From contig OX597818.1 of NCBI GenBank assembly GCA_951406725.2, positions 17,174,001 to 17,238,000 on the forward strand: a stretch of DNA of 64,000 nucleotides, read 5' to 3'. Shown here piece after piece: positions 5,007-5,260 of the stretch (position 1 is the stretch's first letter; every line of letters starts with the position of its first letter). The notes beneath the pieces were generated by a model. The model worked only from the letters and a program-made list of their open reading frames with translations, was not told where the DNA came from and did no database searches. Made by a program: the position numbers and the translations under genes. Source of the DNA: Octopus vulgaris. Its lineage: Eukaryota.

Positions 5007-5260
5007 ACATAAGGGACTAAAGCCATCTGAATATGGCTAGGGACAGGGCAGGGTGGTGGGGGTGTTACTGTTGCATTTAGCCCCAGGCGAACATCGACGT
5101 CACCAGAAAGGCTCGACACCGTCACGGTGTCCTAGGACACCGTGACGGTGTCGAGCCTTTCTGGTGACGTCGATGTTCGCCTGGGGCTAAATGCAACAGT
5201 AACACCCCCACCACCCTGCCCTGTCCCTAGCCATATTCAGATGGCTTTAGTCCCTTATGT
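5007..5260. repeat. Perfect 254-bp palindrome centred on CCTAGG
   Basis: Arms 5007-5133 and 5134-5260 are reverse complements. The ORF track shows the same peptide on both strands (4841..5125 - and 5142..5348 +). Confidence 0.95.

What the first reader, a model, noticed from the sequence alone, without database searches (positions are those of the whole stretch)
5007..5260. Unidentified conserved structured motif at the fold centre of non-hammerhead palindromes
Seen: reading outward from the centre gives GGACAC-CGTGACG-GTGTC-GA-GCCTTTC-TGGTGAC-GTCGATG-TTCGCC-TGGGGCTAAATGCAACAGTAACACCCCC. The hairpin at 54872 onward gives GACAC-AGGATAAAAT-GTGTC-GA-AGCTGTC-AGGAGGC-GTTCGAT-GCCTCCT-AGGGCTATATAACGGTGGTGTACCCCC. 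A third, more distant variant at about 16620-16686 (minus) gives GGTGCA-GAT-TGCATC-GA...AGGGTTAAAAACGGTAGTAAC. Stems are kept while their sequence changes, and a loop TCGA could pair with the upstream TCGA as a pseudoknot. Inference: this motif sits where the hammerhead sits in other fold-backs, so it may be a different ribozyme or an RT-recognition structure. I cannot match it to HDV, twister, pistol or hatchet by eye.
Basis: inference. Interest (0 to 1): 0.72.

Follow-up and report, generated by a model that had tools for sequence, protein, structure and literature searches.

The report
Conserved RNA domain in hammerhead retrozymes
The motif is a real, structurally conserved piece of a family of small jumping repeats that already carry an ordinary self-cutting hammerhead just upstream, so it is probably not a new ribozyme but likely part of the folded handle by which a Penelope-type copying enzyme picks its two start points.

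Summary
The motif is real and its helices covary, but it does not replace a hammerhead. It is an internal part of 350-364-nt tandem units (non-LTR retrozymes). At least eight multi-copy families carry it about 50-110 nt downstream of a type I hammerhead on the same strand. The window palindromes are Penelope-style inverted insertions cut short before that hammerhead. Their outer ends fall at two fixed sites, one per arm (32 of 35 two-arm insertions). The fold centres are scattered, with no pile-up at the motif (4 of 154; 2.1 expected). The proposed pseudoknot can form in 3 of 14 variants only, and just three unpaired positions are invariant, two of which probably pair. The motif is the 5' third of a larger covarying domain, in which an 8-bp long-range helix encloses start site 1. 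Best reading: part of the template structure that positions the reverse transcriptase (0.5, untested). Against this, the motif is absent from the tails of the autonomous Penelope-like elements examined. This scan has reported such retrozymes and the two-end rule before, on other DNA of this genome.

The parts
4957..5260 (.). Family A retrozyme insertion in a TA run: two arms pointing outward, both 5'-truncated at unit position 49; left arm 4957-5133 (-) ends at site 2, right arm 5134-5260 (+) ends at site 1
   Evidence: (L001 = window+3521)
5135..5152 (+). P1 hairpin (mirror copy 5115-5132 on -)
5154..5188 (+). P2/P3 bulged stem: 4-5-bp P2, asymmetric internal loop with invariant C, U, G, 6-bp P3, variable loop (mirror 5079-5113 on -)
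5196..5203 (+). 5' strand of the long-range helix P5 (mirror 5064-5071 on -)
5229..5246 (+). P4 hairpin, about 15 nt before start site 1 (mirror 5021-5038 on -)
4990..4997 (-). 3' strand of P5, lying in the 44-nt 'tail' between site 1 and site 2; present only in the longer (left) arm
54810..55047 (.). Family B insertion: left arm 54810-54871 (-, internally deleted, ends at site 1), right arm 54872-55047 (+, ends at site 2). P1 54872-54891, P2/P3 54894-54927, P5 54933-54941 with 54998-55006
   Evidence: (L032)
16527..16760 (-). Old family C copy, not a palindrome: motif 16618-16687, remnant of hammerhead stem III and cut triplet at 16748-16758
17338..17594 (+).
33320..33476 (-). Decayed family E copy: hammerhead 33444-33476, motif 33320-33390
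33757..33901 (+). Family E copy: small palindrome 33757-33792 centred on the self-complementary hammerhead stem III, motif 33832-33901

Best explanation
The motif is a covarying hairpin plus bulged stem inside 350-364-nt hammerhead-bearing tandem units (non-LTR retrozymes), and it likely forms part of the folded RNA domain that a Penelope-type reverse transcriptase/endonuclease binds to start copying at two fixed internal sites. Shown: unit structure, upstream hammerhead, covariation, two fixed 3' ends in TA runs, one end per arm in inverted insertions, scattered 5' ends. Predicted (folding): the unit's first ~55 nt pair with its back half into a long rod capped by the hammerhead; the rod opens into a multibranched head of P1, P2/P3, P5 (enclosing P4 and site 1), P6 and site 2. 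Inferred: arrays are transcribed, cut by the hammerhead and probably circularised; the enzyme nicks both strands of a TA run, primes one cDNA at site 1 and one at site 2, copies through the motif and round the unit, and the two cDNAs are joined at whatever point they stopped. The window palindromes are cases where both stopped just 5' of P1, at the predicted top of the rod.
For: Units: exact copies recur at 360-bp (A) and 364-bp (B) spacing; natural cut-to-cut units are 360, 364, 350, 352 and 364 nt for A, B, D, F, G. Hammerhead upstream in A 24 of 29, B 18 of 34, D 17 of 25, F 13 of 21, G 14 of 18, I 10 of 11, E 5 of 13 and C 2 of 10 motif copies with a scorable anchor, at modal distances of 96-107 nt (the misses were not checked one by one, many are truncated or decayed). 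Covariation of P1-P3; RNAalifold finds the same helices unprompted. G-U cells outnumber A-C cells 23 to 9 on the hammerhead strand. P5: 96% of cells paired, 7 of 8 pairs with two-sided changes in 10 sequences. 3' ends at the two sites: A 25 of 25, B 55 of 62; two-arm inversions with one arm at each site: A 10 of 10, B 22 of 25; F 23 of 24 and G 16 of 18 ends fall in the same two zones. First TA run mostly 67-79 nt, second 114-140 nt, after the motif anchor across families. Frangieh et al. 2024 (PMC11167929, parts 1-2 of 4 read) show that a Penelope-like protein starts at two adjacent internal sites that define the genomic tail, and that it needs RNA from about 90 nt before to about 55 nt after the first site, a span similar to this domain. 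Craig et al. 2021 (PMC8557442, passages) describe the inverted 5'-truncated copy and tail as Penelope-like signatures.
Against: No autonomous partner carries the motif. The model found none in the tails of three intact RT+GIY-YIG families or of decayed relatives: 32 loci gave only an independent family F insertion and one weak 17.9-bit hit; 20 GIY-YIG loci gave one antisense family G copy 1.3 kb away. One of those families ends at two sites of its own without any such motif. The motif is no better conserved than other helices of the unit (mean pairwise identity P1 0.64, P2/P3 0.55, P4 0.60, tail 0.55, hammerhead half 0.60, back half 0.44), so nothing singles it out as the recognition site. The families share an ancestor, so covariation cells are not independent events. 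The antisense strand folds as well as the sense strand in 5 of 7 families tested. No binding, transcription, cleavage or circularisation was shown. The comparison with the anole element is positional only; sequences were not compared.
Confidence: 0.5

Rival explanations
1. The motif serves the RNA's own life rather than the reverse transcriptase: it helps fold the rod-and-head circle, or binds a host protein for ligation, stability, export or silencing of the hammerhead in the circle.
For: All 5 complete units are predicted to fold as a long rod closing a branched head. Helices covary along the whole unit (38 of 67 predicted pairs with a two-sided change). The autonomous elements examined lack the motif, as expected of a function special to small circles. 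Cervera and de la Pena 2020 (PMC7229834, parts 2-4 of 6 read) infer that the hammerhead in animal circles is blocked in vivo by something other than self-pairing and that a host ligase closes them.
Against: It does not by itself explain the near-constant spacing from the motif to both start sites, or the strongly covarying helix around site 1. It can be true together with the best explanation.
Confidence: 0.3
2. The motif is a second, new self-cleaving ribozyme that cuts at the 5' base of P1 (hatchet- or HDV-like position).
For: Both window palindromes fold exactly at the base of P1 (A 49/49, B 57/59), and three family D ends lie at 56-58. No Rfam family matches. In families A, B and I a 4-5-bp loop pairing is possible and changes in concert between B and I.
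Against: Leaving out the two window insertions, 4 of 154 inner ends lie within 2 nt of P1, against 2.1 expected (P about 0.17; loci were chosen by queries that require parts of the unit intact). The hammerhead cut also shows no pile-up (3 of 154), so this test is weak. Only three unpaired positions are invariant in 14 sequences, two of which probably pair with each other, and no conserved run of 4 or more pairs lies wholly in unpaired columns. The B-to-I change is the kind CpG decay gives. A cut here would destroy the 360-nt unit that arrays of up to 9 or more intact copies preserve.
Confidence: 0.06
3. The conserved bases act at DNA level as an internal promoter for the unit.
For: A TA-rich stretch precedes P1 in most families. 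Family B's loop and some C-like copies resemble a polymerase III B box, and the P2 5' strand resembles an A box (consensus recalled, not from a call).
Against: Two-sided changes that keep pairs in three helices, and the G-U bias, point to a folded single strand. The B-box-like loop is confined to few families.
Confidence: 0.08
4. The shared motif is only a relic of common descent with no present function.
For: The units are homologous end to end.
Against: Neighbouring linkers have decayed to 0.30-0.37 identity while helices stay 87-96% paired with many two-sided changes. Young families with near-identical copies keep the fold.
Confidence: 0.06

Closest known systems
Metazoan non-LTR retrozymes (Cervera and de la Pena 2020, PMC7229834, parts 2-4 of 6 read; Li, Clavereau and Pollet 2026, bioRxiv 10.64898/2026.07.22.740005, parts 1-3 of 5 read)
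   Same: Non-coding 350-364-nt head-to-tail units (mussel: 350-390 bp), one type I hammerhead per unit with a short self-complementary stem III, many dispersed copies, predicted highly paired circle, co-occurring with Penelope-like elements.
   Different: The parts read describe no conserved non-hammerhead domain shared between families and say unit sequences are species-specific. Here at least 8 families share a covarying head domain with fixed spacing to two insertion ends. Expression and circles were not shown here. Supplements were not seen.
Penelope-like element pLTR and tail; Poseidon element PAc of the green anole (Frangieh et al. 2024, PMC11167929, parts 1-2 of 4 read; Craig et al. 2021, PMC8557442, passages and section 11)
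   Same: AT-rich targets, inverted 5'-truncated arm, two internal start sites bounding a tail, structured RNA downstream of the hammerhead required around the start sites.
   Different: No ORF here; tail 44-60 nt rather than 30-40; the PAc binding region lies inside its ORF and was not mapped to a helix; the motif was not found in the autonomous elements examined in this genome.
Hatchet and HDV-like ribozymes (layout recalled, not from a call)
   Same: Superficially, a helix that starts with G at a place where some copies begin.
   Different: No nested double pseudoknot, no conserved catalytic core, no pile-up of ends, no Rfam match.

Membership tests
Non-LTR retrozyme (whole unit) | Short head-to-tail tandem units of 150-450 bp | tested here: met
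   Periods 360, 364, 350, 352, 364; family E about 350
Non-LTR retrozyme (whole unit) | Type I hammerhead in each unit | tested here: met
   Core, stems I-III and NUH triplet in all 8 families by a recalled descriptor. Cores include the U3-A8 variant described in PMC4209133 (passages) and a C4 variant. Rfam did not detect them.
Non-LTR retrozyme (whole unit) | Non-coding, no LTR | tested here: met
   Units repeat directly with no flanking LTR; no RT or endonuclease frame inside them
Non-LTR retrozyme (whole unit) | Self-cleavage and accumulation as linear and circular RNA | not testable with these tools
   Only assembled contigs were offered, none on record as RNA
Penelope-like mobilisation | Inverted 5'-truncated arm and a tail at one end only | tested here: met
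   32 of 35 two-arm A and B insertions have one arm at each site
Penelope-like mobilisation | Shares its 3' region with an autonomous RT+GIY-YIG element | tested here: not met
   No motif in the tails at 32 + 20 loci. Hydra and Naiad clades were not sampled and flanks were 1.5-4 kb, so a partner elsewhere is not excluded.
HDV-like ribozyme | Nested double pseudoknot with catalytic C in J4/2 | tested here: not met
   0 hits in 5 units, both strands, with a recalled descriptor and no positive control; the covarying fold is unknotted
Twister, pistol, hatchet, twister-sister | Match to the family covariance model | tested here: inconclusive
   None at E up to 10 on four units, but the same scans missed the units' own hammerheads
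Twister, pistol, hatchet, twister-sister | Conserved pseudoknot(s) and/or about ten invariant unpaired core bases (recalled) | tested here: not met
   3 invariant unpaired positions in 14 sequences; no conserved run of 4 or more pairs wholly in unpaired columns
Any self-cleaving ribozyme | Site-specific cleavage | tested here: inconclusive
   Genomic proxy only: 4 of 154 ends at P1, 2.1 expected; the hammerhead cut shows no pile-up either
DNA-transposon terminus or MITE | Fixed terminal inverted repeats around a spacer | tested here: not met
   Arms differ in length and the inversion point varies across the unit

The most novel reading that the evidence does not exclude
The roughly 190-nt covarying head (P1, bulged P2/P3, long-range P5 around site 1, P6 before site 2) is a dedicated, transferable landing pad by which non-coding circles capture a Penelope-type, telomerase-related reverse transcriptase in trans without copying the partner's own tail, with P5 setting the distance between the two start sites and so producing the Penelope 'tail'. 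It would be the first structurally defined template-recognition element for this enzyme class.
Probability: 0.25. Interest if true: 0.75.

Novelty: new variant of a known kind. Interest (0 to 1): 0.4.

Why it matters
How Penelope-like reverse transcriptases choose their template and why they start at two internal sites is open, and how animal retrozymes recruit them is proposed but not shown. A domain kept by compensatory change across at least eight families, at fixed distances from both start sites, gives a ready list of helices to mutate in an existing in vitro assay. About 13 full motif copies per 0.8 Mb suggest tens of thousands genome-wide. If the head is a portable signal it would also be a tool for RNA-templated insertion. 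It is not a new catalytic RNA on present evidence.

Tried and rejected
Rfam: 0 matches at gathering score over the window; at E up to 10, 478 matches, of which the 150 shown were nearly all microRNA models on hairpins and simple repeats; nothing relevant on four single units, with the caveat that their hammerheads were missed too. Reading the motif as HDV-like gave no descriptor hit. Homologues outside this genome: a degenerate pattern gave 11 metagenome matches (about 12 expected by my estimate) and 0 viral ones; the best scored 24.6 bits and lies in what looks like prokaryotic coding DNA, so all are treated as chance. Sequencing runs: no RNA holder listed; 19 of 24 listed runs hold part of family B, all as contigs. 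Laying four runs each on families B and D showed cover in runs labelled organisms A-D but cannot show starts, ends or expression. Search for an autonomous partner: three intact families, decayed relatives and 20 GIY-YIG loci were negative. L138, L060, L076, L315 and L256 have a motif near a Penelope-like ORF, but each looks like a separate insertion. A 62-nt 3'-end query for family A returned nothing, so unbiased junction sampling exists for family B only (29 ends, spread from position 1 to 361). Alignment A3 had wrong coordinates and was replaced by A4. The 'E' unit printed was a duplicate of A and was dropped. Three views of one family A array (L013-L015) were dropped before counting. Literature searches listed no paper describing such a domain; only listings and the parts named were seen, and no supplements.

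Full report
Observation. The window holds a perfect palindrome at 5007-5260 (127-bp arms) and a shorter one at 54831-54910 (39-bp arms); the quoted sequences are present. Rfam gives no match at gathering score. The window lies in a 2.8-Gb animal genome; earlier notes of this scan call it cephalopod, which I did not test.

What the motif belongs to. Searching the genome with each variant returned the 40 best of 500-2,900 first-look candidates per family (candidates are not copy numbers). The 5.1-kb variant (family A) is part of a 360-bp unit in arrays of up to nine or more near-identical copies; the 54.9-kb variant (B) is part of a 364-bp unit; the 16.6-kb variant (C) is an old family of about 85% identity. 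Profile scans of held loci and of 800 kb of arbitrarily chosen stretches gave eight multi-copy families and several singletons. That scales to roughly 45,000 in the genome (Poisson range about 24,000-78,000, my arithmetic).

The hammerhead is there. Every family has a type I hammerhead on the motif's strand, with a short self-complementary stem III. It was found upstream in A 24 of 29, B 18 of 34, D 17 of 25, F 13 of 21, G 14 of 18, I 10 of 11, E 5 of 13 and C 2 of 10 scorable copies; the cut lies 94-111 nt before the motif's TRG anchor. Cores are canonical (C, F, I), carry C at position 4 (A, B, D, most E), or carry U3-A8 (G), a variant reported for Penelope-like elements (PMC4209133, passages). 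The window's family D copy shows the whole arrangement at 17383-17594. The window palindromes lack the hammerhead because both arms stop about 50-58 nt short of it.

Shape of the insertions. Mapped on natural units, 3' ends fall at two sites: A 12 at site 1 and 13 at site 2 of 25; B 25 and 30 of 62. In two-arm inversions one arm ends at each site in 10 of 10 (A) and 22 of 25 (B) cases. F (10 and 13 of 24) and G (7 and 9 of 18) behave alike; D is biased by its query. Most ends run into TA repeats. This is the inverted arm plus one-sided tail described for Penelope-like elements (PMC8557442, passages), and it matches the two internal start sites shown in vitro for the anole element (PMC11167929). 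Inner ends are scattered. Leaving out the two window insertions, 4 of 154 lie within 2 nt of the motif's first base (2.1 expected, P about 0.17) and 3 near the hammerhead cut. The loci were picked by queries needing parts of the unit intact, so this is a rough test; the 29 B ends found with a 3'-end query alone spread from position 1 to 361. The fold centre at the motif is therefore not a family property.

The fold. Seven of eight family representatives fold on their own into a hairpin (P1) and a bulged stem (P2/P3); z-scores run from 0 to -3.6, and the antisense strand folds as well in five of seven. On 14 representatives 90.3% of 236 cells pair, 12 of 17 pairs show two-sided changes, 0 of 500 shuffles match, and slid registers pair 31-52%; RNAalifold finds the same helices. 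Two rows (A, C) are misaligned by one or two columns in part, and related sequences inflate such counts. G-U cells outnumber A-C cells 23 to 9, favouring the hammerhead strand. Both loops vary in length and sequence. The TCGA pairing is possible in A, B and I only, uses two bases of P1, and differs between B and I by changes typical of CpG decay. Only C, U and G of the internal loop are invariant and unpaired, the C and G probably pair, and no conserved run of four pairs lies wholly in unpaired columns. That is the profile of a protein-binding or scaffold helix rather than a catalytic core (general knowledge).

The larger domain. The units are homologous end to end. Folded as circles, all five complete units give a long rod, capped by the hammerhead, opening into a branched head that begins with P1 (P1 itself is in four of the five minimum-energy folds). 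Downstream of the motif an 8-bp long-range helix, P5, pairs in 96% of cells with two-sided changes in 7 of 8 pairs across 10 sequences; P4 and P6 pair in 84% with little covariation. P5 encloses P4 and site 1, and its 3' strand lies in the tail between the sites, so the template must extend beyond site 1 for P5 to form, as internal initiation requires. The motif is about as conserved as the hammerhead half, P4 and the tail, and more than the linkers and back half.

Mechanism. I commit to the motif being part of the template structure that positions a Penelope-type enzyme for initiation at sites 1 and 2 (0.5). The anole protein needs RNA from about 90 nt before to about 55 nt after its first start site and does not need hammerhead cleavage; here P1-P3 lie about 65-130 nt before site 1 and site 2 lies 44-60 nt after it. 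The main evidence against is that no autonomous partner carries the motif. Three intact families (775, 781 and 775 aa, RVT_1 plus GIY-YIG), decayed relatives and 20 GIY-YIG loci have none in their tails. A role in the circle's own folding or host-protein binding is the main rival (0.3); a second ribozyme (0.06), a DNA promoter (0.08) and mere descent (0.06) are weaker.

Comparison and verdict. The elements are non-LTR retrozymes by structure (PMC7229834; bioRxiv 10.64898/2026.07.22.740005); expression and cleavage were not testable. This scan has already noted such families, the two-end rule and, once, a covarying multi-helix unit on other DNA of this genome; my reading was written before I saw those notes. 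In seven literature searches I saw no description of a conserved non-hammerhead domain in animal retrozymes; supplements were not seen and may bear on this. PMC10085705 was seen as abstract and outline only and PMC11662667 as two passages. Verdict: real structure, wrong framing as a hammerhead substitute, modest but testable novelty as a cross-family head domain. Interest 0.4.

Noticed in passing
window 62-1261 (+) and 2371-2547 (+): Decayed Penelope-like RT and GIY-YIG fragments, 45-54% identical to intact families elsewhere in the genome.
   Followed up: yes
L123:3572-5896, L128:2044-5732, L129/L130 (G000 C2, C7, C1, C17): Three young autonomous Penelope-like families with intact 775-781-aa RT+GIY-YIG frames, overlapped in two of them (L128, L129/L130) by an upstream frame with no Pfam match where tested; one family forms 4,271-bp tandems and has its own hammerhead and two 3' ends.
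   Followed up: partly
L128:5900-6400; L301, L303, L305, L308: The 3' UTR of the 781-aa family holds repeated CCAAT- and CRE-like words before a TATA-like word, suggesting an internal polymerase II promoter (motif names recalled).
   Followed up: no
family A unit position 38; family B positions 41-42 and 329-334: Small clusters of inner junctions (3 of 25 in A; 4 and 6 of 62 in B). The first two lie at the 3' base of a G-rich/C-rich hairpin inside the predicted rod, the last at hammerhead stem I; possibly pause sites. Post hoc and unexplained.
   Followed up: partly
L256:113-1735: The 3' end of a Penelope-like copy runs through a TTC repeat straight into a 5'-truncated family E multimer on the same strand; either an insertion or a template-switch chimera.
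   Followed up: partly
window 60096-60287, 29674-31568, 41758-41927, 46268-46322, 3184-3218: Other hammerhead-bearing repeats, some inverted, without this motif; in the window plus 800 kb, 6 descriptor hits had the motif downstream and 15 did not.
   Followed up: partly
window 18476-19033 (+): Mariner-type transposase fragment (Pfam Transposase_1, E 1e-6).
   Followed up: no
window 25925-26701 (+): 259-codon open frame with no Pfam match; by eye like the C-terminal nuclease region of a non-LTR retrotransposon (recalled, untested).
   Followed up: no
L314 (G000 C30): The one GIY-YIG hit among 20 that looks like an exon of a host nuclease gene rather than a retroelement (resemblance to SLX1 recalled).
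   Followed up: no
L162:9585-9998, L192:6251-8030, L211:634-1305: Fragments of a more distant Penelope-like family with a long pyrimidine-rich 3' UTR and a hammerhead-like end; no motif.
   Followed up: no
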